This document shows positions 3,402 to 28,975 of a DNA stretch of 64,000 nucleotides, one piece after another (positions within the stretch are counted from its first letter, which is position 1; every line of letters starts with the position of its first letter). A program made the translations under genes and the position numbers. This stretch comes from Patescibacteria group bacterium (GTDB lineage: Bacteria > Patescibacteriota > UBA1384 > XYA2-FULL-43-10). The notes under the pieces are model-generated. The model saw nothing but the letters and a program-made list of their open reading frames with translations, did no database searches and had not been told where the DNA came from. The DNA is taken from assembly GCA_041674405.1 (NCBI GenBank), contig JBAYVT010000004.1, forward strand, positions 74,599 through 138,598, in the 5' to 3' direction.

Positions 3402-4223
3402 TTATCTCACAAAATAAACTATAACGACAACCAGCGCCACGATAACCCTATACCAAGTAAATATGGCGTAATTTCCCTTTTGCAAATATTGTAACAGATA
3501 TTTTATTGCAATAAAACCAAATATTGCTGAAGTTAAAATTCCGACAAAAAATCCGGCATCCAACATCCCGGCATCAATGTGGCGAAATTTAAATAGCGAG
3601 GTTCCTAGCATGATTGGGGCGGCCAGAAGGAATGAAAATCTGGCGCTATCTGGCCTGGTCAAGCCTATTGCCCTTCCTGCGGCCATCGTTGATCCGGCTC
3701 GTGATACTCCGGGTACAATCGCCAACATTTGGGCCAAACCAACTAGTAATCCGAGCTTATAGTTTACAGCTTTTAGCTGATAGCTTCTTTTTGCATATCG
3801 ATCAATCATCCAAATAATAATACCAAAGACGGCTAGATTGATAGCAACAAGAAGCGGATTACGAAAAATCGTTTCGGCATTTTTTTCCAAAAGCACTCCG
3901 GCAATAGATCCCGGAATTGTGGCAACAATGATGATCCAAAGAAGATTCTTTGGATAGCTGCTAGCTGTTAGCTGTAAGCTGTCAGCTTTTTCCGACCCGC
4001 TCTTACTTGAGAATGCCGATCGGAAAATATTCACCCAGTCTTTCCAAAAAAAGGCGATGATAGCGAGGAGTGTGCCGAAATGCAGCGCGACGTCAAATGT
4101 TAATCCGAAATCTTGCCAGTGAAAAAGCCATGGCGTAAGAACAAGGTGCGCGGACGAGGAAATCGGTAAAAACTCGGTGATTCCTTGAATAATTCCAAGG
4201 ATTGCAGGCTGAATTATGCTCAT
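3402..4223 (-). CDS. uppP: Undecaprenyl-diphosphatase (UppP/BacA).
   Basis: MSIIQPAILGIIQGITEFLPISSSAHLVL... is the canonical BacA N-terminal motif. It is polytopic. The start is taken at MSIIQ (4223), which overlaps the upstream PAP2 stop as ATGA. The protein carries an in-frame heptamer-repeat insert (SLQLTASSYP). Confidence 0.85.
   Translation of the reverse strand: MSIIQPAILGIIQGITEFLPISSSAHLVLTPWLFHWQDFGLTFDVALHFGTLLAIIAFFWKDWVNIFRSAFSSKSGSEKADSLQLTASSYPKNLLWIIIVATIPGSIAGVLLEKNAETIFRNPLLVAINLAVFGIIIWMIDRYAKRSYQLKAVNYKLGLLVGLAQMLAIVPGVSRAGSTMAAGRAIGLTRPDSARFSFLLAAPIMLGTSLFKFRHIDAGMLDAGFFVGILTSAIFGFIAIKYLLQYLQKGNYAIFTWYRVIVALVVVIVYFVR
3954..3987. repeat. (GCTGTNA)n heptamer repeat, in frame in uppP.
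   Basis: atagctgctagctgttagctgtaagctgtcagct. Confidence 0.75.
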
Positions 4224-4795
4224 GAAACGTCCTCCAGTTTCCAATATTTTTGAGATTTATGCACAAAAAGAAATGAAAAAATGCCCGATGCTATTCCGAG
4301 AAGTGCTCCCCCTATAACATCGGAGGGATAATGTAGCCCTACGCCAATTCGGGAAATTGCAACCAAAATTGCAACGGCAAATAAAAATACTCCCAGTTTC
4401 TTGTGTCCATACAAAAATATTGCCGTTGCAATTGCAAAGGCAATATAGGTGTGAGAAGACGAAAAAGATGAGGTATGAATGCTAATATTTACATTTTCAG
4501 GGAAAACAAGCTCGGGATGAGAGATAAACGGACGGGGACGGCTCCAGAATATTGAAATAATAATGTCCGTAATCAAGGCCACCCCTGTTGCTAGAGCGGC
4601 GCCTATCAGAGCATTGATCCTTCTTTGCCAGATTAAATATATTGTTGAGAGGACCGAGATTATTACCCCGTAAGCAGCAAAAAAATAGAACAAAAGGCCA
4701 AGTGCGGGGTAGTTCAAATTTGCCCTATGGAAATAAAGGTATAACGTAAAATCGTAATGTCTGATTGCATCAAATAAATTCTGCATTAAATTCAT
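4220..4795 (-). CDS. PAP2-family membrane phosphatase (type-2 phosphatidic acid / undecaprenyl-PP phosphatase-like).
   Basis: Polytopic, with PAP2 signature blocks (...SFSSSHT..., ...GLHYPSDVIGGALLG...). It is translationally coupled (ATGA) to the downstream uppP. Confidence 0.7.
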   Translation of the reverse strand: MNLMQNLFDAIRHYDFTLYLYFHRANLNYPALGLLFYFFAAYGVIISVLSTIYLIWQRRINALIGAALATGVALITDIIISIFWSRPRPFISHPELVFPENVNISIHTSSFSSSHTYIAFAIATAIFLYGHKKLGVFLFAVAILVAISRIGVGLHYPSDVIGGALLGIASGIFSFLFVHKSQKYWKLEDVS

Positions 4796-4806
4796 TCTAG
4801 CACAGA

Positions 4807-4815
4807 TGGTATAAT
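4807..4815 (+). promoter_or_regulatory. Extended -10 promoter (TGgTATAAT) placed so that transcription would begin at or beside the recombinase ATG, giving a leaderless mRNA.
   Basis: TGGTATAAT lies at 4807-4815. ATGs follow at 4814 and 4823. There is no room for a Shine-Dalgarno sequence. The divergent PAP2 start is only 18 bp away. Confidence 0.45.
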
Positions 4816-5884
4816 GGTGGCTATGAAAGACCTTTTTAGGTTGAAGCGAGAATTTTTAGAATACTGCGAGATTGAAAAGGGCCAATCTCTTTTGACGATT
4901 GAAAATTATGACAGATACCTGTCTCGTTTTTTAACTTGGCTAAAAACCGAGAAAACTCAAAACTCAATCCGCCAACCGGCGGGCAAAAGCCAAAACAAAG
5001 GGAGTGCACTACAGACTACAGACTACAGACTACGGACTTCTGATATTGACCAGGAGATTATTCGCAAATATCGTCTATACATCAATCGTTTGCAGGGGGC
5101 GGATGGCAGAGAACTTAAGGCAACGACACAGAATCACCATATTTTGGCCTTGAGGGCATTTTTGCGCTACCTTTCCTTTTCCGGTGAGAAGGTAATTTCG
5201 CCGGAAAAATTGACATTGGCCAAAACCGGAGATCGGGAAGTGAGTTTTCTGAACAAGGAGGAATATCTGCGCCTGCTTGATGCCCCGAATACCGCGAATT
5301 TGAATGGCCTACGTGATAAATCAATGCTTGAGCTTTTGTTTTCGACCGGTTTGCGCGTTTCTGAGCTTTGCGGCCTCAAGCTGGGGCAGATGAATTTTGA
5401 CAAAGGAGAAATTGCTGTTCTGGGAAAAGGGAAAAAACTGAGAGTAGTATTCTTGTCAGATGTTACGCTCAAATATTTGGCCGACTATCTTGTAAACCGC
5501 AAAGTTTTGAAAATTATCGCTGACGACAGCTCAAGTCAATTGCAATATTTTATTTCAGAAACTTATAAAGATGATCCAGTTTTTCTTTCAAATCGCAAGA
5601 ATCCAATCAAACCCAGAGCAGTGGAGCGCCTGGTACAGAAATATGCCAAAGTTGCCGGAATTACTAAAACAGTCACGCCCCACACTCTTCGCCACACTTT
5701 CGCAACTGACTTGCTCGGTGCTGGTGCTGACATTCGTAGCGTTCAATCGCTTTTAGGGCATTCTAATATTTCCACGACTCAAGTCTATACTCACGTCACC
5801 GACAAACACCTGAGGGAGATACACCAGAAATTCCACGATCGATCTCGTATAGAAGTAGATGAGGAACAAAAAAATTCGGGTTAA
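4814..5884 (+). CDS. Tyrosine site-specific recombinase of the XerC/XerD-like integrase family.
   Basis: C-terminal catalytic box HTLRHTFATDLLGAGADIRSVQSLLGHSNISTTQVYTHV (R..HxxR..Y). The N-terminal core-binding domain carries the in-frame insert ...ALQTTDYRLRTSD... from the (GACTACR)n repeat. An alternative start is ATG 4823. Confidence 0.85.
   Translation: MVAMKDLFRLKREFLEYCEIEKGQSLLTIENYDRYLSRFLTWLKTEKTQNSIRQPAGKSQNKGSALQTTDYRLRTSDIDQEIIRKYRLYINRLQGADGRELKATTQNHHILALRAFLRYLSFSGEKVISPEKLTLAKTGDREVSFLNKEEYLRLLDAPNTANLNGLRDKSMLELLFSTGLRVSELCGLKLGQMNFDKGEIAVLGKGKKLRVVFLSDVTLKYLADYLVNRKVLKIIADDSSSQLQYFISETYKDDPVFLSNRKNPIKPRAVERLVQKYAKVAGITKTVTPHTLRHTFATDLLGAGADIRSVQSLLGHSNISTTQVYTHVTDKHLREIHQKFHDRSRIEVDEEQKNSG
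5007..5032. repeat. (GACTACR)n heptamer tandem repeat inserted in frame into the recombinase gene.
   Basis: cactacagactacagactacggact encodes LQTTDYRLRT. Confidence 0.8.
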
Positions 5885-5911
5885 ACCGAATTTTTTAATA
5901 TCCAATATTGA

Positions 5912-6082
5912 TTAATTGTTATCTGGTATATCATTCCACATATCGAATACTTCTACCTGGCAAATCGCCACCTCTTTGGGGCAGTTGGCGATTTCTGTTT
6001 TGATCTGCTCGATACGATGAAAATTCGAATTCACAGGAATTTTTGTTTTTGTATCTTCAATTTTATTTACTTTGAGTTTCAT
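5912..6082 (-). CDS. Small hypothetical protein (56 aa). It is below the ORF-track length cutoff.
   Basis: Hand translation gives MKLKVNKIEDTKTKIPVNSNFHRIEQIKTEIANCPKEVAICQVEVFDMWNDIPDNN. I recognise no family. Confidence 0.3.
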   Translation of the reverse strand: MKLKVNKIEDTKTKIPVNSNFHRIEQIKTEIANCPKEVAICQVEVFDMWNDIPDNN

Positions 6083-6106
6083 TTTTGTTTTGCCTTCGGC
6101 AATTAC

Positions 6107-6187
6107 TTATGAACATAAGAACTTATGAACGGAAGAACAATTTTATGTTTCGGTTCTTCAGTCCTTCGGTTCTTCAGTTTCCGAAGG
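6107..6187. repeat. Intergenic block of direct and inverted short repeats (TTATGAAC..AAGAAC twice; CGGTTCTTCAGT twice). It shares the 11-mer GAAGAACCGAA / TTCGGTTCTTC with the ValRS in-frame insert.
   Basis: Read directly. GAAGAAC...GTTCTTC can form a 7-bp hairpin. Confidence 0.7.
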
Positions 6188-6202
6188 GATTAGATCATTA
6201 TA

Positions 6203-6240
6203 ACAAAAACGACACCCCGTGTCAACCAGTGACACGGGGT
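6203..6240 (-). terminator. Rho-independent terminator for the minus-strand GC-rich membrane-protein gene.
   Basis: 11-bp perfect stem accccgtgtca / tgacacggggt with loop accag. On the minus strand it is followed by cgtttttgtta. Confidence 0.7.
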
Positions 6241-6296
6241 ACAGCTCTCGTCTATTCCGTTGTGGCCCAGTCTTGAGCTTGGCGGTTGGTTGGGGG

Positions 6297-6791: not shown

Positions 6792-6880
6792 TTTCGACCT
6801 CCTGAGGGACGGGCTTGTTTGTTCGCAGAAACAAAAAACACAACGAGCAACAACTAGAAATCCAGGGTGTTACCGCTGTG

Positions 6881-8209
6881 TCACCTGTCTTCTCCAAACA
6901 AACGGATAAGTTCCTCACGTACGACCTTGCGGTCGGAGTAGGGAACGAACTCATGTAAGCCGACTGCCATCACTTCTTCTGCTCCTTTTCCAGTAACGAC
7001 AACAACATCATTTTTTTTTGCTTCCTTTATCGCTTTGTGAATAGCTTGTTTTCGATCGAGGACTTTCCAATAATTTCGATTCAACCGCCACTGATGTTTC
7101 TTGCCGCCGCGGAAAATACCCTCTGAAACCTGCTCGATAATATCGGCAGGATTCTCGTCATACGGATCTTCGTCGGTAAAAATCACCAGATCAGCATAGT
7201 GTCCGGCAAGCGCGCCCATGATCGGGCGCTTAGTCTTGTCTCTATGGCCGGTGGCACCAAGCACGGCGATCAATCGCCCACCAGTTTTTTGTATGCTATC
7301 AGTCACTGTTTCATAAACATTTTTCAGGGAATCGGCGTTGTGGGCATAGTCCACGATTACGGTAAAGTCTTGTTTTTTACTTACTTTAATCGATTCCATT
7401 CTCCCGGTAACTCCGGACATATTCTCAAGTCCCATCCTAGTCTTTTCTGTATCGAGTCCCAAGGCAAGACCGACAGAAAATGCGGCTAAAGCATTTAGAA
7501 CGTTAAAAATTCCTGGCATTTTCAAGTTGATTGTGGACTGGCCATTGTCGTATGCGGCAGTGAAAGTAACGCTCTCGGGAGAGGTCAATATTTTTCTTGC
7601 AACCGCTCCGTGATCAACCTGCTTCTTAACTGAGTACAAAAATTTTTCGGAGGCTGGGAGAGAGTAGAATTTATTCCATTCTGCGTCATCACTATTGATA
7701 ATAAATTTTGCTTTTGGGTGATCGCGGAAAAGTTTAAGTTTGGCGTTCAGATAGTTCTCTTTGGTTTTGTGATACTCCATGTGCTCGTGCGAAAGGTTGG
7801 TGTAAACCAACACATCGAAATCGATTCCATAAATCCTGTTTTGGTCGATCGCTTGTGAAGTCACCTCTAAAATTGCATATTCACACTTATTGGCCACCGC
7901 TCTTTTCAAAAATCTTTGAATCACATCGGAGGGAGGAGTTGTTACCCATCGATCTTTGGTTTTGTGCGCGGTTATTTCGTCGTTTATTTTCGTATTGATG
8001 GTTGTTTCCATCGCGTTTTTGATGCCATTGGCATCGAGAACAGAAGCGATCATATTACAAACGGTGGTTTTCCCTTTGGTACCGGTAACGCCGATTACTT
8101 TGAGTTTTTTCGCCGGGTGGCCATATTTAAAACCGGCCCATGAAGCCTCAGCTCTGTGGAGCTTGTTTTTCGTTTTCTGCGATAAAATTTTAGATATTAG
8201 TCGTTTCAT
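6881..8209 (-). CDS. murE: Mur ligase, most likely MurE (UDP-MurNAc-L-Ala-D-Glu:diamino-acid ligase), with a shortened N-terminal domain.
   Basis: P-loop VIGVTGTKGKTT, the Mur-ligase middle domain, and VDYAHNADSL, which matches the MurE DYAHTPDAL block. At 442 aa it is about 50 aa shorter than typical MurE. Confidence 0.7.
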   Translation of the reverse strand: MKRLISKILSQKTKNKLHRAEASWAGFKYGHPAKKLKVIGVTGTKGKTTVCNMIASVLDANGIKNAMETTINTKINDEITAHKTKDRWVTTPPSDVIQRFLKRAVANKCEYAILEVTSQAIDQNRIYGIDFDVLVYTNLSHEHMEYHKTKENYLNAKLKLFRDHPKAKFIINSDDAEWNKFYSLPASEKFLYSVKKQVDHGAVARKILTSPESVTFTAAYDNGQSTINLKMPGIFNVLNALAAFSVGLALGLDTEKTRMGLENMSGVTGRMESIKVSKKQDFTVIVDYAHNADSLKNVYETVTDSIQKTGGRLIAVLGATGHRDKTKRPIMGALAGHYADLVIFTDEDPYDENPADIIEQVSEGIFRGGKKHQWRLNRNYWKVLDRKQAIHKAIKEAKKNDVVVVTGKGAEEVMAVGLHEFVPYSDRKVVREELIRLFGEDR

Positions 8210-8214
8210 ATTTT

Positions 8215-8281
8215 ATTGCTAAATTGCTGTATTGCTAAATTGCTTACACAACAATTTGACAATTTAACCATTTAACAATTT
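8215..8281. repeat. Tandem 7-8 bp repeats in the murE upstream region (ATTGCTAAATTGCTGTATTGCTAAATTGCT; CAATTTGACAATTTAACCATTTAACAATTT).
   Basis: Read directly. They sit directly 5' of the murE ATG at 8209 on the minus strand. Confidence 0.6.
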
Positions 8282-9194
8282 ATCTTCGGATTTTTTCCGC
8301 AATTTTAAATAATTGGTATTCGAATGGTTTATAAACCTTGTCGTAACTGCCCATAATTTTAACTTCATCTCCACCGAACTGCTTTTTGAATCTGGTAACT
8401 CCTGCCCATAAGTGGCGCGGGTTGTCATCCGGCGCAATTCCGAAGAAGTCGTATATTTTGCAGCCGCGGCTTATGGCATTTTGAATCATTTCCCATTGTA
8501 ATTTGTATGGCGCCATTAGGTTCTTGAATTCGTCACTTGAGGCACCAAAAAGATAGATTGCTGAGCCCTGATAAATGCTGCAGATTGCCGCTGCTAAGAC
8601 GACTTCCTCACCTTCAATTTCGGCATAAGCTTCGAACAACTCACAATATCCCTTGGGTTCAAGAAAGTCAAGCAACTTCTGAAAATATTCCTCACCTCTA
8701 AATGTAATTCCATGTCTCTTGCCTGTCTTCTCGTAGAGCTTGTAAAAATTACTGGCATCTCTTGTTTTTCTCACCAGAATATTATTTTTTTCGGCAACCT
8801 TGATGTTATAGCGGCCTTTCTGTTTCATCTCACCAAGAAGGTCATCATTCGATTTGGAGAGGTCAAGAACTAGGGTGTGTTCCGGCTGCATCTCCTCGAA
8901 AGATTTAATTAGTCCATAGTCTGTAGTCTGTAGTTCATAGTCTGTGGGGATATCGAATTCAATCCGGTAGAAAATTGCATTTTCCTCTTTTGCTATTTGA
9001 AAGGTTTGGTTCCAGTAGCTTTGGTTTTTGACATTTGAAATTTGATCTTGACTCGCCATCGGCGAGTATAACATCGACCTTCCCATTGGCAGGTCTTTTT
9101 TGAGCACCAAAATATCCTCGACGCGAAAGGATTTCGAATAGCCTGTAGCGAGTTTAAATTTCTCCCATTCGGGAGATTGAAATATAGAACTCAT
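8280..9194 (-). CDS. FemAB-family peptidoglycan interpeptide-bridge aminoacyltransferase (FemX-like).
   Basis: The N-terminus ...FQSPEWEKFKLATGY... matches the FemAB SWEWAEFK block. The length is right. It sits next to murE. It carries the in-frame insert PTDYELQTTDYGLIKS from a reverse-orientation (GACTACR)n repeat at 8911-8948. Confidence 0.65.
   Translation of the reverse strand: MSSIFQSPEWEKFKLATGYSKSFRVEDILVLKKDLPMGRSMLYSPMASQDQISNVKNQSYWNQTFQIAKEENAIFYRIEFDIPTDYELQTTDYGLIKSFEEMQPEHTLVLDLSKSNDDLLGEMKQKGRYNIKVAEKNNILVRKTRDASNFYKLYEKTGKRHGITFRGEEYFQKLLDFLEPKGYCELFEAYAEIEGEEVVLAAAICSIYQGSAIYLFGASSDEFKNLMAPYKLQWEMIQNAISRGCKIYDFFGIAPDDNPRHLWAGVTRFKKQFGGDEVKIMGSYDKVYKPFEYQLFKIAEKIRR
8911..8948. 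repeat. (GACTACR)n heptamer repeat, reverse orientation, in frame within the FemAB-like gene.
   Basis: agtccatagtctgtagtctgtagttcatagtctgtgg. Confidence 0.8.
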
Positions 9195-9207
9195 TACCTA
9201 AATATTA

Positions 9208-9546
9208 TCACTCTTGCCTCTTGCTGCCAATAAAAAAGAGGGCCTCCTGACCCGGTGGGACTGGGTCGGAGGCGGTGCGGGTTGCGGCTATCCTGAGAGA
9301 ATATCGCATCCCCGGGGAGGCTCCTTGCGATGGCCATGGATTGCCTTCATTGCCGTCAGGCGGTAGCTCTGTCCATGTATCTTCGACATCGCTTCGTGGT
9401 GACGGATGCGCCACATAACGCGCTCCGTCATACCTGGCTTGGGTAAATCGGAATGGGCTCCGACCACCAAACCAAGCGTACATCCCAATCTCTGATTTGC
9501 TGTCTTTATCATGTCCACCACTCCTCCAGAAGTTCTGTGATTCCAA
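9208..9546 (-). CDS. Hypothetical protein (112 aa) in GC-rich cassette B.
   Basis: Open frame in a GC-rich block. I recognise no motifs. Confidence 0.3.
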   Translation of the reverse strand: MESQNFWRSGGHDKDSKSEIGMYAWFGGRSPFRFTQARYDGARYVAHPSPRSDVEDTWTELPPDGNEGNPWPSQGASPGMRYSLRIAATRTASDPVPPGQEALFFIGSKRQE

Positions 9547-9597
9547 GCTAGTGTAAAATTACTATAATGTCAAGCTCTGCATTAGATAATTTGGCAT

Positions 9598-9635
9598 ATA
9601 AAAAATTAAGCCCCCACCTAGCGTGTAGGTGGGGG
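9598..9635 (-). terminator. Rho-independent terminator on the minus strand.
   Basis: 10-bp stem cccccaccta / taggtggggg with loop gcgtg, preceded on the plus strand by aaaaaattaa (a U-tract on the minus strand). Confidence 0.6.
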
Positions 9636-9815
9636 TGCGACTTGCGGGACCATCTCGATGCTGTTGCGCGGCACTTCGTGCCGTCTCAGTGTACCGCCAT
9701 CGAGAGCGGCGCGGACGACAGCTTTGCCGCCTTTGTATTCGATGAGAGTACCACCAGTGTACTTGCCGTCTTTCTGCCTGATTCTCACGCGCGCGTTGAT
9801 GGGCATGCCTTTCAC
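9618..9815 (-). CDS. Small hypothetical protein (65 aa) in GC-rich cassette B. It might be a DUF2945/TUDOR-like small beta protein; that is a guess.
   Basis: MKGMPINARVRIRQKDGKYTGGTLIEYKGGKAVVRAALDGG... Its stop codon lies inside the terminator hairpin. Confidence 0.35.
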   Translation of the reverse strand: MKGMPINARVRIRQKDGKYTGGTLIEYKGGKAVVRAALDGGTLRRHEVPRNSIEMVPQVAPPPTR

Positions 9816-9898
9816 CTCGTGGCAGTATTTCAGTCCAACTCATTGTTAATATATCAAAAAAATATGCAGAGTAAACAGCAACACCGCAGGCGTGTTGC

Positions 9899-10270: not shown

Positions 10271-10355
10271 TATGGTTTTAGATAATTGATTGAGTCAACC
10301 CAACAATTTTCCGAGTGGTAAAAAGTTTGGTTTTGTGCTAGAATTTTTCAGTTAA

Positions 10356-11570
10356 ATGACAAAGAAAAACCTAAAAATTTTAGCAATCGAAACAAGCTGT
10401 GATGAGACGGCTGCTGCTGTGATTTCTGAAAATCGAAATAAACCAGAAATACTATCGAACATTGTTTCTTCACAAATTGATCTTCATGCTAAGACCGGCG
10501 GAGTAGTGCCGGAAGTTGCATCGAGAGCGCATATGGAGGCGATATTGCCTGTCGTAAGTGAGGCGCTTGTACAGGCAAAACTCAAAAATCCAGAAAAACT
10601 ACGGACTACGGACTACAACCTACAAACTGGTCTGTCGGATATCACCCATATTGCCGTAACTGCTGGGCCAGGGCTGATCGGCTCACTCTTGGTTGGGTTC
10701 AACACGGCAAAATCGCTGGCTTATTCGCTGGATTTGCCAATCATTCCAATCAATCATATAGAAGGACATGTGTACTCCGCATTCGCGGAGCAATTTCCAA
10801 TTCCCAATTTCCAATTTCCAATTCTAGCATTGACTGTGTCTGGCGGCCATAGCTCGTTAACTTTGATGAAAGATCACGGAATCTATGAAAATTTGGGTCA
10901 GACTTTAGATGATGCGGCGGGAGAAGCTTTCGACAAGGTTGCGAAACTTCTCGATCTTGGTTATCCAGGAGGACCGGTGGTTTCTAAACTCGCGGACGAG
11001 TTAAGAAACAAAGTCAAAAATCAAAGATCACCCGTCTCGGCCGAGGCACGATCCGAGGTCGGAAAGATCAAAAATAATAAAGAAAAAAATAGCAATTTAA
11101 CAATGAAACAATTTAACAACGAGATTGTATTTCCCCGTCCGATTCTGAATGACGGCACATTCAATTTCTCATTTTCCGGATTAAAAACCGCGGTTTTGAC
11201 GGAGGTGGTCAAACTAAGGACTAAGGACTACGAACTACCGACTAGTGAAATCTGTGCGGCATTTGAAGATTCGCTTACCGATGTGCTTACGACAAAAACA
11301 ATGAGAGCGATTGATAAATTCAAACCAAAAGGTTTGATTCTTGCCGGAGGAGTAGCGGCCAACAGCTATCTGCAAGCCGAACTTCAACGGAAGGTTAATG
11401 AATACAATCAGACTTTAAAGAAAAGAGATCAGATTAATTTTTATATGCCTCCGCGGGATATGACAGGTGACAATGCGGCGATGATCGGTCTTGCAGCTTA
11501 CTATCATATATCGAGGGGAGATGTAAAAGGGTGGGACGAGATCGAAGTCGATTCAAATTTTAAGCTCTAA
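10356..11570 (+). CDS. tsaD: tRNA N6-adenosine threonylcarbamoyltransferase TsaD (Kae1/YgjD) carrying three in-frame low-complexity inserts.
   Basis: ILAIETSCDETAAAVI..., metal-binding His motifs (HIEGH), and C-terminal GGVAANSYL. At 404 aa it is longer than typical (about 340) because of the inserts KLRTTDYNLQTG, FPIPNFQFPIL and KLRTKDYELPTS. Confidence 0.85.
   Translation: MTKKNLKILAIETSCDETAAAVISENRNKPEILSNIVSSQIDLHAKTGGVVPEVASRAHMEAILPVVSEALVQAKLKNPEKLRTTDYNLQTGLSDITHIAVTAGPGLIGSLLVGFNTAKSLAYSLDLPIIPINHIEGHVYSAFAEQFPIPNFQFPILALTVSGGHSSLTLMKDHGIYENLGQTLDDAAGEAFDKVAKLLDLGYPGGPVVSKLADELRNKVKNQRSPVSAEARSEVGKIKNNKEKNSNLTMKQFNNEIVFPRPILNDGTFNFSFSGLKTAVLTEVVKLRTKDYELPTSEICAAFEDSLTDVLTTKTMRAIDKFKPKGLILAGGVAANSYLQAELQRKVNEYNQTLKKRDQINFYMPPRDMTGDNAAMIGLAAYYHISRGDVKGWDEIEVDSNFKL
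10598..10627. repeat. (GACTACR)n heptamer repeat, in frame in tsaD (first copy).
   Basis: aactacggactacggactacaacctacaaact. Confidence 0.8.
10791..10824. repeat. (TTCCAAT)n heptamer repeat, in frame in tsaD, encoding FPIPNFQFPIL.
   Basis: caatttccaattcccaatttccaatttccaattc. Confidence 0.8.
11211..11245. repeat. (GACTAMG)n heptamer repeat, in frame in tsaD (second copy).
   Basis: aaactaaggactaaggactacgaactaccgactag. Confidence 0.8.
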
Positions 11571-12299: not shown

Positions 12300-14549
12300 A
12301 TGTCAAAAGAATTCGCCAAAACCTGGGACTCGAAGAAGTTTGAAGAGGATTTATACCAAAACTGGGAAAAATCCGGCTATTTCAAGCCTGAATTGAACAT
12401 GCCCGAAAATCCAAAATATGATCGGGCGCTCGAAGGCAAACCATTCGTCATCCCAATTCCGCCGCCGAATGTCACCGGCAAGCTTCACATCGGCCATTCG
12501 TTATTCATCACAATTCAGGATGTCATGATCCGCTTCCATCGCATGCTTGGCGAGCCCACGCTTTGGATCCCCGGCACCGATCACGCCGGTATCGCTACGC
12601 AGACGGTCGTGGACAAAGCCTTACAAAAAAAGGGAATTAAGCGCCACGAAATTGGCCGTGAGAAATTTGTCGAAGAAGTTTGGAAGTGGAAAGAAGAATA
12701 CGGCGGTATTATCACCTCACAACTCAAACGAATGGGTGCTTCCTGCGACTGGTCGCGCGAGCGTTTTACCCTCGACGAAGGTTTATCCAAAGCTGTGAAA
12801 GAGGCATTTGTCCACCTATACGAGAAGGGATTGATCTACCGCGGCGAATATATCGTCAATTGGTGCCCGAAATGCGGCACGGCGATCGCGGATGACGAGA
12901 TGGAGCACGAAGAACAAACCGCAAAATTGTACTATTTCAAATACGACAAAAACTTTCCGATCACCATAGCAACTACCCGGCCAGAAACCAAACTTGGAGA
13001 TACGGCTGTGGCGGTCAATCCAACCGACAAGCGTTATGAGCAGTACATTGGCAAAGAATTCGATGTTGATATCGATGGCGTTAAGCGCAAGATCAAAATT
13101 GTTGCCGATCGCTCTATTGATATGAAATTCGGTACCGGCGCAGTCGGAATTACGCCTGCACACTCGGCTATCGACTGGAAAATCGGTGAAGTTAATGATC
13201 TTCCGATTGTCAAAGTCATCGACGAACGAGCAAAAATGACCGCCGAGGCCGGCAAATACGAGGGAATGAAGGTGCTCGAAGCCCGAGAAAAACTAGTTGA
13301 ATATCTGAAAGGCGAAACACTCCTGGAAAAAGAGGAGCCGATCACAAATAATTTGAGCGTCTGCTACCGCTGCAACACGGCTATAGAGCCGATTCCGTCT
13401 CTACAGTGGTTTGTGAGTATGCGCCCACTGGCAGAAAAAGCTAAAGCGGCCGTAACCTCCGGCGCTATCAAAATTATCCCGAAAAGATTTGAGAAGAATT
13501 ACAATCAGTGGATGGACAATATCCGCGACTGGTGCATCTCCCGCCAGCTTTGGTGGGGACACAGAATCCCGGTTTGGTATCGCAAACAGGAAAATCTCAA
13601 ACCTCAAACCTCAAATCTCAAACCCGAAGACATCTATGTCGGAAAAGAACCGCCAGCTGATATTGAGAGTTGGATTCAAGACGAAGATGTGCTCGATACC
13701 TGGTTTTCCTCGGCGCTTTGGCCGTTTTCTTCACTTGGTTGGCCAGAGAAAACCAAAGATCTGCAGTATTTCTATCCGGCAACCGTTCTCGAAACCGGAT
13801 ATGACATTCTCTTTTTCTGGGTCGCCCGAATGGTAATGATGGGACTTGAGCTTACTGATTCGATTCCATTTGAGAATATTTACCTCCACGGCTTGGTTCG
13901 CGATGAGAAAAATAGAAAGATGTCCAAGTCTCTCGGCAATGCGCTCGATCCGCTCGATATGATCGATAAATACGGCACAGATGCTGTCCGGATGGGTCTT
14001 GTGGTCGGCACTACCCCCGGGCTTGATATTCCTGTGGGTGAGCACAAGCTTAAGAATTATCGCAATTTCTCGAACAAAATCTGGAATGCCTCGCGCTTCG
14101 TTTCTCTTCGAGTTTCCGAAGGTGATCTGGCCTCGGGAGAAATTGGAGATGAGAAAATCGAGAACTTAAATATCGACCAATCAATTTTAACCGACGCCGA
14201 CAAAAAAATTCTCGAAGCACACGAGGAAATCAAAAAGCGCGTGACAAAAGACCTCAAGGAGTTCAAATTCTCTGGCGCCGGCGAAGGGCTATATGAGTAT
14301 TTCTGGCACAATTTCTGCGATATCTACATAGAAGCTGCTAAAGGGCAGCTCCAAACTGAAGAACCGAAGAACCGAAGAACCGAAGAACATTCAGAAAACA
14401 CAAAAAAAATCCTGCTCAAAGTTCTGTCTGAATCTTTACAGATGCTGCATCCGTTCGTTCCTTATGTCACCGAAGCTGTCTGGCAGGAACTACGCGAAAT
14501 TTATCCAAAACTTTCCGAATCGATCATGATCTCCAAGTGGCCTATGTAA
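12300..14549 (+). CDS. valS: Valine--tRNA ligase (ValRS), a short form lacking the C-terminal coiled-coil, carrying two in-frame repeat inserts.
   Basis: Class I HIGH region PPPNVTGKLHIGHS, the KMSKS motif KMSKSLGN, a CP1 editing domain and zinc-knuckle cysteines. The inserts are ENLKPQTSNLKPED and EEPKNRRTEEH. Confidence 0.8.
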   Translation: MSKEFAKTWDSKKFEEDLYQNWEKSGYFKPELNMPENPKYDRALEGKPFVIPIPPPNVTGKLHIGHSLFITIQDVMIRFHRMLGEPTLWIPGTDHAGIATQTVVDKALQKKGIKRHEIGREKFVEEVWKWKEEYGGIITSQLKRMGASCDWSRERFTLDEGLSKAVKEAFVHLYEKGLIYRGEYIVNWCPKCGTAIADDEMEHEEQTAKLYYFKYDKNFPITIATTRPETKLGDTAVAVNPTDKRYEQYIGKEFDVDIDGVKRKIKIVADRSIDMKFGTGAVGITPAHSAIDWKIGEVNDLPIVKVIDERAKMTAEAGKYEGMKVLEAREKLVEYLKGETLLEKEEPITNNLSVCYRCNTAIEPIPSLQWFVSMRPLAEKAKAAVTSGAIKIIPKRFEKNYNQWMDNIRDWCISRQLWWGHRIPVWYRKQENLKPQTSNLKPEDIYVGKEPPADIESWIQDEDVLDTWFSSALWPFSSLGWPEKTKDLQYFYPATVLETGYDILFFWVARMVMMGLELTDSIPFENIYLHGLVRDEKNRKMSKSLGNALDPLDMIDKYGTDAVRMGLVVGTTPGLDIPVGEHKLKNYRNFSNKIWNASRFVSLRVSEGDLASGEIGDEKIENLNIDQSILTDADKKILEAHEEIKKRVTKDLKEFKFSGAGEGLYEYFWHNFCDIYIEAAKGQLQTEEPKNRRTEEHSENTKKILLKVLSESLQMLHPFVPYVTEAVWQELREIYPKLSESIMISKWPM
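13592..13625. repeat. Heptamer repeat (ACCTCAA-like), in frame in valS.
   Basis: aatctcaaacctcaaacctcaaatctcaaaccc. Confidence 0.8.
14358..14388. repeat. Octamer repeat (GAAGAACC) x about 3.5, in frame in valS.
   Basis: gaagaaccgaagaaccgaagaaccgaagaac. Its reverse complement also occurs in the intergenic repeat block at 6151-6187. Confidence 0.8.
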
Positions 14550-20894: not shown

Positions 20895-20912
20895 TGTCCC
20901 CTTGTTTTAAGG

Positions 20913-26640: not shown

Positions 26641-26668
26641 TAATTAATATGATTGCTAAGGAAAGAAA

Positions 26669-27958
26669 ATGAAAATTGTTGTCATTGGTACTGGTTATGT
26701 TGGCTTGGTACAAGGTGTAGCATTGGCAGAATTGGGCAATGAGGTTACCTGCATTGATGTAGACGAGGATAAAATTGCAAAACTCAAAGAGGGAATTTCC
26801 CCAATATACGAGCCGGGAATCGAAGAGCTAATTAAGAAAAATCTAAAACAAGGCCGGATTACTTTCGAAACATCGCTTAAAAGATACTTGAATAAATCCG
26901 ATATCGTATTTATCGCGGTGGGGACGCCGTCGGACGAAAATGGAAAAGCCGATTTGAAATATATTATCGCTGCAGCGGAAGAAATCGGAAAAAATATCAA
27001 GAAACCTCTTGTTATCGTAAATAAAAGCACAGTGCCGATTGGGACAGGAGAAATGGTAAAAAGTACCATCAAGAAGCACTACAAGGGAAGCTTTGACGTC
27101 ATCTCCAACCCGGAATTTTTAAGAGAAGGTTCGGCAATCGACGACTTTTTTCATCCGGATCGAGTGGTAATAGGGTGCAATGGGGACCGAGAAGCAGCAG
27201 AAAAAGTCGCTGAAGTTTACAAGGTCTTAACTTGCCCAATTGTCATAACGAACCTAGAAACCGCAGAAATGATCAAATATGCCTCAAATTCTTATCTGGC
27301 AACCCAGATTTCATTCATCAATTCAATTGCTAATATATGCGAAAAAGTCGGTGCCGATGTAGCCGATGTCTCGCGCGGCATGAAACTGGACAAACGAATT
27401 GGCGAGCGGGCATTCCTGAGTGCCGGCATCGGCTACGGGGGATCATGTTTTCCAAAAGATGTAAGCGCAATGGTAGAAATCGCCAAAGAAACCGGAGAGG
27501 ACTTTAGGATATTGGAGGAAGTCGAGGCAGTAAACAAATCCCAAAGGCAAAGATTCGTTAAAAAAATTGTTGAGAAACTAGGCAAATTAAAAGGAAAGAG
27601 AATCGCGATCTGGGGAGTAGCTTTCAAGGCAAAAACGGATGATATCAGGGAAGCGCCGGCGATTACAATAATGGAAGCATTAATTGATTTGGGTGCAGAA
27701 GTTTTAGCATATGACCCAGTCGCCGTGGAAAATGCGAGTAAAATTATTCCCGATGCAATCTATGTTAATCGACCAACAGACGCTTGCAAGCGTGCAGACG
27801 CGTTGCTTATTGTCACTGATTGGGACGAATTTAAACAAGTAAATCTTGATGAACTTGGCAACTCAATGAAATCAAAAGTCATTTTTGACGGCAGAAATAT
27901 CTATAACCCCGAAGATGCAAAGAAAGCTGGGTTCACATATTTTGGGATAGGTAGATAA
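26669..27958 (+). CDS. ugd: UDP-glucose 6-dehydrogenase, or a related UDP-sugar 6-dehydrogenase.
   Basis: MKIVVIGTGYVGLV (Rossmann fold), catalytic ...GGSCFPKDV..., and a length of 429 aa. Confidence 0.8.
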   Translation: MKIVVIGTGYVGLVQGVALAELGNEVTCIDVDEDKIAKLKEGISPIYEPGIEELIKKNLKQGRITFETSLKRYLNKSDIVFIAVGTPSDENGKADLKYIIAAAEEIGKNIKKPLVIVNKSTVPIGTGEMVKSTIKKHYKGSFDVISNPEFLREGSAIDDFFHPDRVVIGCNGDREAAEKVAEVYKVLTCPIVITNLETAEMIKYASNSYLATQISFINSIANICEKVGADVADVSRGMKLDKRIGERAFLSAGIGYGGSCFPKDVSAMVEIAKETGEDFRILEEVEAVNKSQRQRFVKKIVEKLGKLKGKRIAIWGVAFKAKTDDIREAPAITIMEALIDLGAEVLAYDPVAVENASKIIPDAIYVNRPTDACKRADALLIVTDWDEFKQVNLDELGNSMKSKVIFDGRNIYNPEDAKKAGFTYFGIGR

Positions 27959-27991
27959 TAGAAAGAAATATCATTATTTAAGATTAAAATT

Positions 27992-28975
27992 ATGAAAAAT
28001 CAGCCCAAGGTTTCCATCATCATTCCTGTTATTGCCGTAAATGATTACATTCGCGAGTCCATCCCTGAGATTCTGAAGTTAGATTGGCCGGATTATGAGA
28101 TTTTTATTTTTCCTGATCAACCTGACAAAAAACATAAATGGCCGAAAACCAAAATTATCGCATCGGGCAAAGTCGGGCCGGCAGAGAAACGCGATCTGGC
28201 AATTAAATATGCCCAAGGCGAGATCATTGCATTTTTAGACGATGATGCATTTCCGAGAGCCGATTGGCTCAAAAAGTCGATCAAATTATTTTCTGACAAA
28301 AAAGTCGGCGCTGTCGGCGGGCCTGCGATGACACCGAAGCATGACGATACCCTACAAAAAGTTTCTGGCGCTGTTTTTGAATCTTATCTTGGCGGTGGCG
28401 GAGCGAGAAACCGCTATTTGCCGATCGGCAAAGAGTGTGAATGTGACGATTGGCCAACAGTGAATCTGCTTGTCCGCAAGGATGTTTTTGCAAAAATAGG
28501 TGGCTTCGATAATACTTACTGGCCAGGGGAAGACACCAAACTTTGCCTTGATATTTTAAGTGCCGGTTACAAAATCATGTATACGCCGGAGGCGGTCGTC
28601 TACCACCATCGCCGATCCGACCTTGTGAAGCACTTCAAACAGATTGGAAATTATGCCCTGCATCGCGGTTTCTTTGCCAAGATCTATCCGAAAACTTCGC
28701 TTAAACTATTCTATTTCATGCCGAGTATTTTCGATCTATATCTGTTGGCGTTGATAATAATTACCCTCATTCCTCATTCCTCATCTCTTGTAATGATTGC
28801 CTCAATTCCAATTGCGCTATATGCCGTTGGGCTTATTTTGGATGCCCTTGTTATCTCATTTCGTTGGAAAAATCCATTGGTAGGATTAATCACGATACCC
28901 ATGGTCCTCTTCACTCATGTCTGGTACGGCATCCGCTTCGTTTGGGGGCTGATTATTCCAAAACTTGCTAGATAG
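27992..28975 (+). CDS. GT2 glycosyltransferase with C-terminal TM helices.
   Basis: VSIIIPV..., ...AFLDDDA... (DxD), and a C-terminal hydrophobic region. It contains the in-frame repeat insert at 28765-28787. Confidence 0.65.
   Translation: MKNQPKVSIIIPVIAVNDYIRESIPEILKLDWPDYEIFIFPDQPDKKHKWPKTKIIASGKVGPAEKRDLAIKYAQGEIIAFLDDDAFPRADWLKKSIKLFSDKKVGAVGGPAMTPKHDDTLQKVSGAVFESYLGGGGARNRYLPIGKECECDDWPTVNLLVRKDVFAKIGGFDNTYWPGEDTKLCLDILSAGYKIMYTPEAVVYHHRRSDLVKHFKQIGNYALHRGFFAKIYPKTSLKLFYFMPSIFDLYLLALIIITLIPHSSSLVMIASIPIALYAVGLILDALVISFRWKNPLVGLITIPMVLFTHVWYGIRFVWGLIIPKLAR
28765..28787. repeat. (CCTCATT)n heptamer repeat, in frame in a GT2 gene.
   Basis: cctcattcctcattcctcatctc. Confidence 0.7.

What the first reader, a model, noticed from the sequence alone, without database searches (positions are those of the whole stretch)
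3954..28787. Heptamer/octamer tandem repeats are spliced in frame into essential genes across the genome (uppP, tsaD, valS, GT2)
Beyond the GACTACR family, other 7-8 bp units repeated about three times sit inside coding sequence without breaking the frame. They are (GCTGTNA)n in uppP (3954-3987), (TTCCAAT)n in tsaD (10791-10824, FPIPNFQFPIL), an ACCTCAA-like repeat (13592-13625, NLKPQTSNLKP) and (GAAGAACC)n (14358-14388, EEPKNRRTEEH) in valS, and (CCTCATT)n in a GT2 gene (28765-28787). The valS GAAGAACCGAAG motif recurs as its reverse complement in the intergenic repeat block at 6107-6187, and the murE promoter region (8215-8281) is built from similar 7-8 bp repeats. This looks like a genome-wide repeat-seeding process that tolerates only multiples of three nucleotides within genes. 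It could drive slipped-strand length variation of surface loops.
Basis: seen in the sequence. Interest (0 to 1): 0.6.

Follow-up and report, generated by a model that had tools for sequence, protein, structure and literature searches.

The report
In-frame 7-base repeat arrays in genes
A tiny uncultured bacterium of the Berkelbacteria type carries many short arrays of about four copies of a 7- or 8-base unit inside intact housekeeping genes, where they survive only as stop-free, three-unit (21 or 24 base) additions in surface loops; this is a real and unusual variant of a known bacterial repeat class, not a switchable or new genetic system.

Summary
All five tracts exist at the stated coordinates, inside intact uppP, tsaD, valS and GT2 genes. 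Period-7 tandem arrays are far above chance: 9 in 64 kb against 0.04 in shuffles. Their density is about 22 times that of non-CPR genomes at the same locus.

The window comes from a Berkelbacteria-like CPR bacterium. Its relatives carry the same kind of arrays, often at the same protein loops.

Arrays in genes are typically about 4.3-4.7 units long (30-33 nt). Two clean comparisons show length changes of exactly three units: +7 aa in TsaD and +8 aa in ValRS. The sense strand is nearly always the stop-free orientation (25 against 2). The arrays map to coils or low-confidence loops.

Four independent samples show no copy-number variation, and several arrays predate species splits. They are therefore fixed insertion scars, not phase-variable loci. 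The GT2 array is not an indel relative to 120 homologues.

Best reading: these are heptanucleotide long simple-sequence repeats, made by replication or repair slippage and then sieved by selection for frame, absence of stops and loop tolerance.

One open point remains. Units recur as families with the same register and length in different genes, which hints at templated copying of roughly 30-nt blocks.

The parts
3955..3987 (-). Array in uppP. Sense strand reads AGCTGAC AGCTTAC AGCTAAC AGCTAGC AGCTA (4.7 units, 33 nt) and encodes ADSLQLTASSY. The variable positions keep TGA, TAA and TAG out of frame.
   Evidence: Window is +9 aa relative to L001 and +8 aa relative to E. coli UppP 6CB2. The orthologous array in L084 is decayed.
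5008..5038 (+). Array in the XerC-like recombinase gene: (ACTACAG)x3, ACTACGG, ACT (31 nt). It encodes LQTTDYRLRT and begins at codon position 3.
   Evidence: An orthologous array with the same unit is present in L084. L086 lacks it; the window is +15 aa relative to L086 there.
6085..6196 (-). Intergenic block made of two mutually inverted 8-mer arrays (6105-6138 and 6149-6179). It folds as a long hairpin. It lies downstream of a consensus sigma-70-type promoter at 6225-6197(-) and upstream of a conserved 56-aa ORF at 5912-6082(-). One arm shares a 32-nt block with the valS array.
   Evidence: Folding energy is -30.7 kcal/mol with z = -4.6. Promoter match is 12/12. The 32-nt block is 94% identical to valS 14353-14384.
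8214..8282 (-). The femAB-murE intergenic spacer, built from two 8-mer arrays: ATTGCTAA/ATTGCTGT x3.8 and AACAATTT x4.1.
   Evidence: The same spacer in L084 and L085 is also made of arrays, but with unrelated units. A weak promoter-like site lies at 8238-8210(-).
8917..8945 (-). Array in femAB. Sense strand reads ACTATGA ACTACAG ACTACAG ACTATGG ACT and encodes TDYELQTTDYGL.
   Evidence: L084 has an array of the same length but a different unit family (AAGCTAC) at the same site.
10598..10628 (+). tsaD site 1 array: ACTACGG ACTACGG ACTACAA CCTACAA ACT (31 nt, partly decayed). It encodes LRTTDYNLQT and begins at codon position 3.
   Evidence: It is an insertion relative to L001, L018, L044 and PDB 8IEY. 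In the structure model the pLDDT of residues 81-90 is 71.
10791..10823 (+). tsaD site 2 array: CAATTTC x4.7, encoding QFPIPNFQFPI. It overlaps the invariant F-P motif.
   Evidence: The same unit sits at the same site in L084, L085 and L208. P0095 and P0027 differ by exactly 7 aa here. The model shows coil at residues 142-155.
11093..11119 (+). 8-mer array CAATTTAA x3.4 inside the long, low-confidence TsaD insertion at aa 217-258.
   Evidence: pLDDT is 44-51. The region does not align to solved TsaD structures.
11213..11243 (+). tsaD site 4 array: ACTAAGG ACTAAGG ACTACGA ACTACCG ACT (31 nt). It encodes LRTKDYELPT and begins at codon position 3.
   Evidence: An orthologous array is present in L084. 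L086 has a perfect ACTTACA x3.7 array at the same site. The site is a helix-coil boundary at aa 287-296.
13592..13624 (+). valS array 1: AAATCTC AAACCTC AAACCTC AAATCTC AAACC (33 nt), encoding NLKPQTSNLKP.
   Evidence: It aligns to the loop that carries the Cys knuckle in T. thermophilus ValRS 1GAX. L001 and L086 have array-like NLK/KLK sequence there, and L002 and L018 have none.
14354..14388 (+). valS array 2: AACTGAAG, (AACCGAAG)x3, AAC (35 nt), encoding TEEPKNRRTEE.
   Evidence: The window is exactly +8 aa (24 nt, three units) relative to L086. It lies in a loop between helices of the anticodon-binding domain, by alignment to 1GAX.
28765..28784 (+). GT2 array: CCTCATT x2.9, encoding LIPHSSS, between two hydrophobic segments.
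   Evidence: It is not an indel relative to 120 homologues. Many of them read IIHNSLFII at that position, which I read as heptamer-type coding, though I did not fetch their DNA. The array is identical in a fourth sample.
61975..62004 (+). Array AATGTCA AATATCA AATTTCA AATGTCA AA (30 nt) in a VanW/PG_binding_4 protein gene. It encodes NVKYQISNVK.
63876..63945 (.). Intergenic pair of GACTACR arrays in inverted orientation: 63876-63895 on the minus strand and 63920-63945 on the plus strand.
   Evidence: Folding signal is weak (z = -2.0). Similar inverted pairs occur in several metagenome loci.

Best explanation
**What they are.** These are heptanucleotide, and some octanucleotide, long simple-sequence repeats. 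This repeat class is known to be over-represented in many bacteria. Here it occurs at high density in a Berkelbacteria-like CPR lineage, mostly inside genes.

**Inferred step.** Arrays arise and turn over at the DNA level by slipped-strand or template-switch copying during replication or repair. This starts from short native seeds: one unit plus 2-5 nt of direct-repeat microhomology.

**Shown step.** Selection then sieves the products. Inside essential genes, only changes of three units (21 or 24 nt) persist. The usual result is an array of about 4.3-4.7 units (30-33 nt), rarely about 7. Surviving arrays sit in the stop-free orientation and at loops that tolerate 7-10 extra hydrophilic residues.

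**Evolutionary behaviour.** Once fixed, arrays act as ordinary insertions. They are inherited across species splits and decay by point substitution. Occasionally they are deleted or replaced by a fresh array of the same length at the same site. They are not contingency loci.

**Outside genes.** The same process builds spacers and 5' leaders there. Units containing stop codons are allowed, and inverted array pairs can form hairpins.
For: **Shown**
- Period-7 excess: 9 arrays against 0.04 expected.
- Clade-wide pattern: period 7 gives 20 arrays, against 0/2/0 for periods 6/9/12. The 73 non-CPR loci show the opposite pattern at 0.0065 arrays per kb.
- Three-unit quantum: P0095 and P0027 TsaD are 89% identical and their only indel is the 7-aa SNFQFPI. 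The DNA of the longer form is a perfect (AATTTCC)x4.6.
- ValRS carries +8 aa relative to L086 from an 8-mer array.
- 28 of 29 in-gene arrays with at least 3.9 copies fall at 3.9-4.7 copies, and one falls at 7.1.
- A native seed is visible. The TsaD site 2 array overlaps the invariant F-P-(I) codons TTT CCA ATT.
- Stop-codon sieve: in 25 arrays only the sense orientation is stop-free, against 2 of the opposite kind (p = 5.6e-6). Arrays whose consensus unit carries a stop are imperfect exactly where needed. 11 of 13 intergenic arrays have units containing stops.
- Loop location: AlphaFold model of TsaD and alignments to 1GAX, 6CB2 and 8IEY.
- Age and stability: orthologous arrays in L084 at xerC, tsaD sites 2 and 4 and uppP, and no variation in four samples.

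**From the literature**
- Heptanucleotide repeats are the most abundant class of long simple-sequence repeat in most prokaryotic genomes, and polymerase slippage was proposed as the cause (Mrazek et al. 2007, as summarised in PMC4679880 and PMC4692102).
Against: - Simple one-unit slippage cannot take an essential gene from 1.x to 4.x units without frameshifted intermediates. No +1 or +2 states were seen, so how arrays are gained is not explained. The P0095/P0027 pair could equally be a loss of three units.
- Unit families recur within a genome far more often than independent local seeds predict. GACTACR occurs at 5 loci here. Three of its in-gene arrays share the same unit register, codon phase and 31-nt length (about 1/441 by chance).
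- L046 has identical 30-nt blocks in different genes, and these share an internal variant.
- valS and an intergenic hairpin arm share a 32-nt block.
- At two sites (femAB and tsaD site 1), the window and L084 carry arrays of equal length but different families. Point mutation cannot easily produce that.
- Several intergenic arrays also have about 4 units, although no frame constraint applies there. The sample is small.
Confidence: 0.6

Rival explanations
1. The arrays are copies of very small dispersed cassettes of about 30-33 nt (four units plus a partial unit). These spread or overwrite one another by templated copying, such as ectopic gene conversion or template switching between arrays, or by an unknown tiny mobile element. 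On this view, local slippage from native seeds is not their origin.
For: - L046 carries the block (AATTTTC)4AA at least three times identically, plus a fourth copy with one extra T.
- L046 also carries AATTTCT-AATTTCA-AATTTCT-AATTTCT-AA three times (one exact, two each with one further difference), with the same internal variant unit, in tsaD, valS, murE and femAB.
- In the window, the xerC, tsaD site 1 and tsaD site 4 arrays share start register, codon phase and 31-nt length.
- A 32-nt valS block recurs at 94% identity in an intergenic hairpin, including the same variant first unit AACTGAAG.
- Arrays switch unit family at constant length between the window and L084 at femAB and tsaD site 1.
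- Intergenic arrays also tend to have about 4 units.
Against: - TsaD site 2 arrays are in register with invariant native codons, and the same unit sits at that site in five genomes.
- No conserved flanks, terminal inverted repeats or target duplications surround the arrays.
- GACTACR arrays in other organisms have a broad, continuous range of copy numbers.
- GACTAC is not enriched as a single copy.
- A 31-nt cassette is not a multiple of three, so overlap with the target would still be needed.
Confidence: 0.22
2. The arrays are contingency loci. Frequent slippage would change loop length or switch genes on and off, as in the phase-variable repeats of pathogens.
For: - Tandem repeats are intrinsically prone to slippage.
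- Loop lengths at these sites vary widely across the family; TsaD ranges from 348 to 546 aa.
Against: - Four independent samples carry identical arrays.
- Array length is conserved between species whose TsaD is 68% identical.
- The genes are single-copy core genes (tsaD, valS, uppP), where off states would be lethal.
- Arrays are short, about 4 units, and many are imperfect.
Confidence: 0.05
3. The repeats are kept by selection on the encoded peptides. Examples would be LQTTDY- or FPISNFQ-type loop motifs with a role in protein interaction or host attachment, with the DNA periodicity only a by-product.
For: - Similar peptides recur at the same loops in relatives: FPISNFQFP in seven TsaDs, and L(Q/R)TTDY-like motifs at TsaD sites 1 and 4.
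Against: - The periodicity is 7 nt, not 21 nt.
- Each array encodes only about 1.5 copies of a 7-aa motif.
- The same sites carry unrelated units in other relatives.
- The same units occur in non-coding DNA.
- The model gives low confidence or coil at these sites.
Confidence: 0.08
4. The tracts are assembly or sequencing artefacts, or chance products of base composition.
For: None beyond the fact that the source is a metagenome assembly.
Against: - Independent assemblies from ENA, Logan (two runs) and JGI are identical.
- Shuffles give 0.04 arrays against 9 observed.
- Relatives carry arrays at orthologous sites.
Confidence: 0.01

Closest known systems
Long simple-sequence repeats with heptanucleotide units in prokaryotes (Mrazek, Guo and Shah 2007, PNAS 104:8472; cited here through PMC4679880 and PMC4692102)
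   Same: - Head-to-tail arrays of a 7-nt unit, longer than chance allows.
- Period 7 is favoured over neighbouring periods.
- The distribution is specific to certain lineages.
- Polymerase slippage has been proposed as the origin.
   Different: - That survey found non-triplet units mostly outside genes and triplet multiples inside them.
- Here most arrays lie inside core genes, are capped at about 4.5 units, and change by three units at a time.
- The host is a CPR bacterium. The two library searches aimed at this found no such report for that group.
STRR heptamer repeats of heterocystous cyanobacteria (Mazel et al. 1990, from my own knowledge; the Calothrix heptanucleotides are mentioned in PMC4692102), together with the GGGAATC / GGGGA(T/C)T arrays of Xanthomonas and Nostoc (PMC4692102) and the TAACTGA arrays of Beggiatoaceae (PMC4679880)
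   Same: - A small vocabulary of heptamer units is reused at many loci in one genome.
- Inverted pairs of arrays occur in spacers.
- In the Beggiatoaceae arrays, orientation is constrained by stop codons.
   Different: - Those arrays are mainly intergenic and often much longer (up to 26 units).
- Their units are different.
- No three-unit in-frame rule in essential genes has been described for them.
Rickettsia palindromic elements and other intragenic MITEs (PMC10969869)
   Same: - Selfish or neutral repeats are inserted in frame into unrelated housekeeping genes, at positions compatible with the protein fold.
- Relatives of this genome also carry peptides derived from palindromic elements at the same loops.
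   Different: - Rickettsia palindromic elements are about 150-bp palindromic mobile elements with a conserved ORF.
- The arrays here are 30-35-nt direct tandem repeats without inverted termini.
Small dispersed repeats (21-27 nt) of Nostoc punctiforme (Elhai et al. 2008, Genome Res 18:1484; from my own knowledge, with the reference confirmed in PMC3116915)
   Same: - Very small dispersed repeat families are associated with heptamer arrays, and mobility without an encoded protein has been suspected.
- This is the closest precedent for the cassette reading.
   Different: - Those repeats insert into heptamer arrays rather than being the arrays themselves.
- The host is a cyanobacterium.
- Mobility is not shown here.
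Phase-variable repeat loci of host-adapted pathogens such as Haemophilus and Neisseria
   Same: Tandem short repeats lie within or near genes.
   Different: Those loci vary rapidly by single units and switch non-essential surface genes. Here there is no variation, and the genes are essential.

Membership tests
Heptanucleotide long simple-sequence repeats (prokaryotic) | Head-to-tail copies of a 7-nt unit | tested here: met
   TRF and my own scan: 9 strong period-7 arrays with 72-100% matches.
Heptanucleotide long simple-sequence repeats (prokaryotic) | Arrays longer or more frequent than expected for the genome's composition | tested here: met
   9 observed against 0.04 expected in triplet-block shuffles, with a maximum of 1 in 100 shuffles.
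Heptanucleotide long simple-sequence repeats (prokaryotic) | Period 7 favoured over other periods, as a trait of the lineage | tested here: met
   Clade loci have 20 period-7 arrays against 0/0/0/4/2/1/1/0 for periods 4, 5, 6, 8, 9, 10, 11 and 12. Non-CPR loci are dominated by periods 6, 9 and 12.
Cyanobacterial STRR | The canonical units (CCCCAGT, TTGGTCA, CAACAGT) in a cyanobacterial host, mainly intergenic | tested here: not met
   Units here are ACTACRG, AGCTNAC, TTCCAAT, AAACCTC and CCTCATT. The host is Berkelbacteria-like. Most arrays are intragenic.
Phase-variable contingency repeat loci | Copy-number polymorphism among closely related strains or samples | tested here: not met
   L081, L082 and L083 are 100% identical. 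L207 is identical at the GT2 array. This is assembly-level evidence only; reads were not examined.
Phase-variable contingency repeat loci | Changes in unit number switch expression of dispensable genes, usually surface genes | tested here: not met
   Arrays lie in tsaD, valS, uppP, femAB and xerC. The observed states differ only by in-frame triples of units.
Intragenic MITE / Rickettsia palindromic element-like insertions | Terminal inverted repeats or a palindromic structure in a dispersed element of conserved sequence | tested here: not met
   Coding arrays are direct repeats without conserved flanks. Only the intergenic block at 6085-6196 is hairpin-forming.
Intragenic MITE / Rickettsia palindromic element-like insertions | In-frame insertion at surface positions of unrelated housekeeping proteins | tested here: met
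Small dispersed repeats / tiny mobile cassettes | Multiple copies with identical boundaries and shared internal variants at unrelated loci | tested here: inconclusive
   Met in L046. Met in part in the window, where three GACTACR arrays share register, phase and length, and a 32-nt block is shared between valS and an intergenic site. The native seed at TsaD site 2 argues the other way.
Protein-level tandem repeats | A DNA period that is a multiple of three, with the repeat maintained by selection on the peptide | tested here: not met
   The period is 7 or 8 nt. Each array spans only about 1.5 copies of the 7-aa reading cycle.

The most novel reading that the evidence does not exclude
The arrays are not independent slippage products. 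They are copies of roughly 30-nt blocks of four units that the genome writes into, or overwrites at, tolerant sites by a templated process. That process could be gene conversion or template switching between dispersed arrays, or repair synthesis that repeatedly copies 7-8 nt. On this reading they would be among the smallest self-propagating sequence families known, and a routine source of new surface loops in CPR core proteins.
Probability: 0.2. Interest if true: 0.65.

Novelty: new variant of a known kind. Interest (0 to 1): 0.42.

Why it matters
CPR bacteria have tiny genomes, yet their core proteins are studded with lineage-specific loop insertions. TsaD in this clade ranges from 348 to 546 aa. 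This analysis traces part of those insertions to one DNA-level source, non-triplet tandem arrays. It also gives simple, testable rules for which arrays survive: changes of three units, a stop-free strand and a tolerant loop.

There are three practical consequences:
- Peptides such as FPISNFQFP, LQTTDY and IIHNSLFII in CPR proteomes are repeat scars, not functional motifs.
- Such sites mark loops where insertions are tolerated.
- Alignments and phylogenies of CPR marker genes should mask them.

If the cassette reading holds, it would add a new and extremely small class of propagating sequence, and a mechanism for concerted remodelling of loops.

Tried and rejected
- **RNA genes.** Rfam at gathering thresholds found nothing in the whole window, and ARAGORN found no tRNA. 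No RNA gene explains the arrays.
- **Singleton motif.** I tested whether GACTAC is an over-represented single-copy motif, like the cyanobacterial HIP1 motif (an over-represented palindromic octamer, from my own knowledge). It is not: about 12 copies lie outside arrays, against 9.4 expected.
- **Strain variants.** I looked for variants with different copy numbers. TsaD has no relative between 68% and 100% identity. All exact-protein contigs are identical at the DNA level. The only close variant found, GT2 P0121 on L207, differs by a 33-nt deletion elsewhere in the gene, not at the array.
- **Copy-number spectrum from the metagenome scan.** I scanned for GACTACR x2.9, hoping for a clean spectrum. 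The hits span GC 0.3-0.7 and many organisms, with broad copy numbers. The scan shows the unit is widespread but does not test the four-unit rule in this clade.
- **DNA of the base-state TsaD (P0095).** It could not be fetched, so the native seed there is inferred from the protein sequence and from L208.
- **Papers not held.** Mrazek 2007 and Elhai 2008 are not in the library. They are cited second-hand or from memory.
- **Literature on CPR repeats.** Searches for in-frame or simple-sequence repeats in CPR or Patescibacteria returned nothing relevant.
- **Periodicity of loop lengths.** I considered a 7-aa periodicity in the TsaD site 2 loop-length histogram. It is not clean, and the peaks are inflated by near-identical sequences.
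- **RNA-level removal.** I rejected splicing or recoding, because the frames are intact and the arrays are translated in all relatives.

Full report

- 3955-3987, TAGCTGT x4.7
- 10791-10823, CAATTTC x4.7
- 13592-13624, AAACCTC x4.7
- 14354-14388, AACCGAAG x4.4
- 28765-28784, CCTCATT x2.9

The raw sequence agrees. Pfam confirms the genes: UppP/BacA at 3402-4244(-), TsaD at 10356-11570(+), ValRS at 12300-14549(+) and a GT2 at 27992-28975(+). It also identifies a XerC-like recombinase at 4814-5884, a Mur ligase at 6881-8209(-) and FemAB at 8280-9194(-). ValRS is short (749 aa) but complete, and it reads through the 8-mer array in frame.

A period scan of my own finds 9 period-7 arrays, 2 period-8 arrays and essentially nothing at other periods from 4 to 15. 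Triplet-block shuffles give 0.04 and 0.06.

The reverse-complement recurrence of the valS motif is real. There is an exact 12-mer at 6164-6175 and a 32-nt block at 94% identity. The femAB-murE spacer at 8214-8282 is indeed made of two 8-mer arrays.

**2. Where does the window come from, and is it an artefact?**

A ValRS-guided scan of species-representative genomes places the window next to a Candidatus Berkelbacteria genome bin (L001, 69% ValRS identity, same gene order). Two further CPR bins follow (L003 at 65%, L002 at 60%).

The exact TsaD protein is encoded on three independently assembled contigs: ENA, 158 kb, and two Logan runs. All three are 100% identical to the window over 21.2, 13.2 and 1.7 kb, arrays included. 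A fourth sample (JGI, L207) is 99.9% identical across the GT2 array. The arrays are therefore not assembly artefacts. They also show no copy-number polymorphism at the assembly level.

**3. Is it more than comparable genomes show?**

Using one detector throughout, the period-7 densities are as follows:

| Sequence set | Period-7 arrays per kb |
|---|---|
| Window | 0.14 |
| Three nearest relatives | 0.15 |
| Four further syntenic clade contigs (L084, L085, L086, L208) | 0.36 |
| Other CPR-labelled loci | 0.11 |
| 73 non-CPR valS neighbourhoods (1.23 Mb) | 0.0065 |

In the non-CPR loci, periods 6, 9 and 12 dominate (17, 20 and 23 arrays), as expected for coding DNA. In the clade, period 7 dominates: 20 arrays, against 0, 2 and 0 for periods 6, 9 and 12. 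Not all CPR share the trait, since L018 and L079 have almost none.

Within the window the arrays are uneven: 9 of 11 lie in the first 15 kb (p = 7e-5). The array-poor 20-56 kb stretch is a low-GC surface-polysaccharide gene cluster.

**4. Anatomy of the arrays in genes**

*Length.* TRF over 213 kb of CPR loci gives 29 in-gene period-7 arrays with at least 3.9 copies. Of these, 28 have 3.9-4.7 copies (about 29-33 nt), none has 4.8-7.0 copies, and one has 7.1. Compared with non-ORF arrays from a mixed metagenome set, Fisher's p is 3e-6; that set comes from different organisms, so the comparison is only rough. Arrays scored at 2.6-2.9 copies are often decayed four-unit arrays. Examples are tsaD 10598-10628 and 11213-11243.

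*Quantum of change.*
- TsaD proteins P0095 and P0027 are 89% identical. Their only indel is the 7-aa SNFQFPI.
- The DNA of the longer form is a perfect (AATTTCC)x4.6, in register with the invariant F-P-I codons TTT CCA ATT.
- The window's site 2 has the same 23-residue spacer, against 16 residues in the base state.
- At ValRS site 2, the window is exactly 8 aa longer than L086, which equals three 8-mers.

*Strand.* Among 53 in-gene arrays, 25 have a stop-free sense unit and an antisense unit containing stops. Only 2 show the reverse (p = 5.6e-6). Arrays whose consensus unit would carry a stop are imperfect exactly where needed. For example, uppP reads AGCT-GAC/TTAC/AAC/AGC, which keeps TGA, TAA and TAG out of frame. 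Of 13 intergenic arrays, 11 have units containing stops.

*Place in the protein.*
- In an AlphaFold model of TsaD (mean pLDDT 85.7), the arrays fall in coil or reduced-confidence segments. These are residues 81-90 (pLDDT 71), residues 142-155 (coil), the 217-258 insertion (pLDDT 44-51) and the coil at 290-295.
- Against solved structures the array sites are gaps or unaligned loops. This holds for TsaD 8IEY and for UppP 6CB2 (+8 aa).
- In ValRS 1GAX, array 1 replaces the loop that carries a Cys knuckle in Thermus. Array 2 sits between two helices of the anticodon-binding domain.

*The GT2 exception.* The GT2 array lies between two hydrophobic segments and is not an indel relative to 120 homologues. 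Many homologues read IIHNSLFII at that position. I read that as heptamer-type coding, but I did not fetch their DNA.

**5. Age and turnover**

The nearest syntenic relative, L084 (TsaD 68% identical), has arrays at the same codons with the same unit family at four sites: xerC (CTA CAG ACT ACG GAC TAC...), tsaD site 4, tsaD site 2 and, in decayed form, uppP. These arrays therefore predate the split of the two species.

At femAB and tsaD site 1, the two genomes carry arrays of the same length but different families: ACTACAG against AAGCTAC/AGCTNAN. At tsaD site 4, L086 has a perfect ACTTACA x3.7.

Across 120 TsaD homologues, the same five or six loops hold unrelated repeat-derived peptides, and protein length runs from 348 to 546 aa. 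Relatives also carry peptides derived from palindromic elements in frame at these loops, such as VIASEA...LAMT and CHSELVSES...KFGMT.

The picture is of long-lived insertion scars that decay by substitution and are occasionally lost or replaced. It is not one of rapid length switching.

**6. Intergenic arrays**

The block at 6085-6196 consists of two inverted 8-mer arrays. Read on the minus strand, it folds into a long hairpin (-30.7 kcal/mol, z = -4.6). It lies just downstream of a 12/12 sigma-70-type promoter at 6225-6197(-) and upstream of a 56-aa ORF that is conserved in relatives.

The femAB-murE spacer is made of arrays in the window, L084 and L085, with unrelated units in each. A GACTACR inverted pair sits at 63876-63945, with only a weak folding signal.

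**7. Mechanism**

*What is shown.* Arrays have a DNA-level origin, since the period is 7 or 8 nt and not a multiple of three. Selection on frame, stop codons and loop tolerance shapes what survives. Changes come in triples of units. At least one site has a native seed.

*What is inferred.* Generation is by slippage or template switching. This is the explanation offered for the general excess of heptanucleotide repeats in prokaryotes by Mrazek et al. 2007, as summarised in PMC4679880 and PMC4692102. Losing three units from a 4.6-unit array is mechanistically easy. Gaining three units from a 1.6-unit seed in an essential gene is not explained by single-unit slippage, and I saw no +1 or +2 intermediates.

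*Unresolved features that point to templated copying of whole arrays.*
- GACTACR arrays occur at five loci in the window.
- Three of them (xerC, tsaD site 1, tsaD site 4) start at the same unit position and at codon position 3, and all are 31 nt long. That is about 1/441 by chance.
- L046 has identical 30-nt blocks in different genes, and these share an internal variant unit.
- The valS array and an intergenic hairpin arm share a 32-nt block with the same variant first unit.

*Points against a clade-private mobile element.*
- GACTAC is not enriched as a single copy.
- The arrays have no conserved flanks.
- A metagenome scan finds GACTACR arrays in at least 120 contigs, with GC from 0.3 to 0.7 and a broad range of copy numbers.

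**8. Comparison with what is known**

- The closest class is the heptanucleotide long simple-sequence repeats of prokaryotes. Next come the STRR, GGGAATC and TAACTGA heptamer arrays of cyanobacteria, Xanthomonas and Beggiatoaceae. Those are mainly intergenic and often long.
- In-frame colonisation of housekeeping genes is best known from Rickettsia palindromic elements, which are about 150-bp palindromic elements (PMC10969869).
- The small dispersed repeats of Nostoc (Elhai 2008, from my own knowledge) are the nearest precedent for the cassette idea.
- The library searches I ran found no description of in-frame heptamer arrays in CPR core genes. The library is incomplete, so this is weak evidence of novelty.

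**9. Verdict**

The suggestion of ongoing slipped-strand variation finds no support.

I classify this as a new variant of a known kind. It is of moderate interest for CPR genome and protein evolution, and it has a practical use in recognising repeat-scar peptides.

Noticed in passing
window 56600-59200: A 2.6-kb block with GC 0.52-0.55, against 0.38-0.45 on either side. It contains only overlapping ORFs on both strands, none with a Pfam match. There is no Rfam match even at E <= 0.1, and no tRNA. It lies between a GT1 gene and a 567-aa membrane protein with a weak match to the N-terminus of H+-pyrophosphatase. Unexplained.
   Followed up: partly
window 28423-28455 (GT2 gene), compared with L207: A conspecific sample (JGI 3300037067, 99.9% identical) lacks 33 nt (11 aa, LPIGKECECDD) of a segment conserved in all 120 homologues. 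The deletion lies between imperfect 7-nt direct repeats, ATTTGCC and ATTGGCC. It is an in-frame deletion polymorphism in the catalytic domain.
   Followed up: partly
window 6085-6225, minus strand: A perfect sigma-70-type promoter (TTGACA, 17 nt, TG-TATAAT) at 6225-6197 is followed by a roughly 95-nt hairpin made of two inverted 8-mer arrays (z = -4.6). Next comes a 56-aa ORF (5912-6082) conserved in L084 and L086. This may be a structured 5' leader. L086 also has an 8-mer array at the equivalent position.
   Followed up: partly
L001, L084, and TsaD homologues P0020, P0021, P0035, P0045 and P0047: Relatives carry peptides that look like translations of palindromic repeat elements, inserted in frame at the same loops as the arrays. 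Examples are VIASEA...DLAMT, SVIARKNDEAI...LAMT, CHSELVSES...KFGMT, CHSREGGNL...DPRVKPEDD and LRFAQNDK.
   Followed up: no
L046 8555-18158: Identical 30-nt blocks occur in tsaD, valS, murE, femAB and an upstream spacer of a distant CPR genome. One is (AATTTTC)4AA. The other is AATTTCT-AATTTCA-AATTTCT-AATTTCT-AA, with a shared internal variant. They behave like dispersed cassettes.
   Followed up: partly
window 20000-56500: A large low-GC surface-polysaccharide gene cluster with very few arrays. It contains five GT2 genes, one GT1, two Wzx-type flippases, three tandem Wzy_C paralogues (51736-55452), two AftD-like GT-C genes (37115-41447), a DegT aminotransferase, UDP-glucose dehydrogenase, an epimerase, a radical-SAM/B12 enzyme and a LarA-like gene.
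   Followed up: no
window 12300-14549 (ValRS): This ValRS lacks the C-terminal coiled-coil extension and the Cys knuckle present in Thermus ValRS. Repeat-derived sequence occupies the place of the knuckle.
   Followed up: no
window about 9200-10350: Gene orientation switches here, from the minus strand to the left to the plus strand to the right. Cumulative GC skew reaches its minimum near 8-10 kb. The array-dense region is centred on this divergence point. I did not test whether it is a replication origin.
   Followed up: no
window 14600-15267 and window start: An HTH_17 plus Fic gene pair follows valS. The first gene of the contig is a TrbL_3-like gene for a conjugation or type IV secretion protein. 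A PhdYeFM antitoxin-domain protein lies at about 20913-21533.
   Followed up: no
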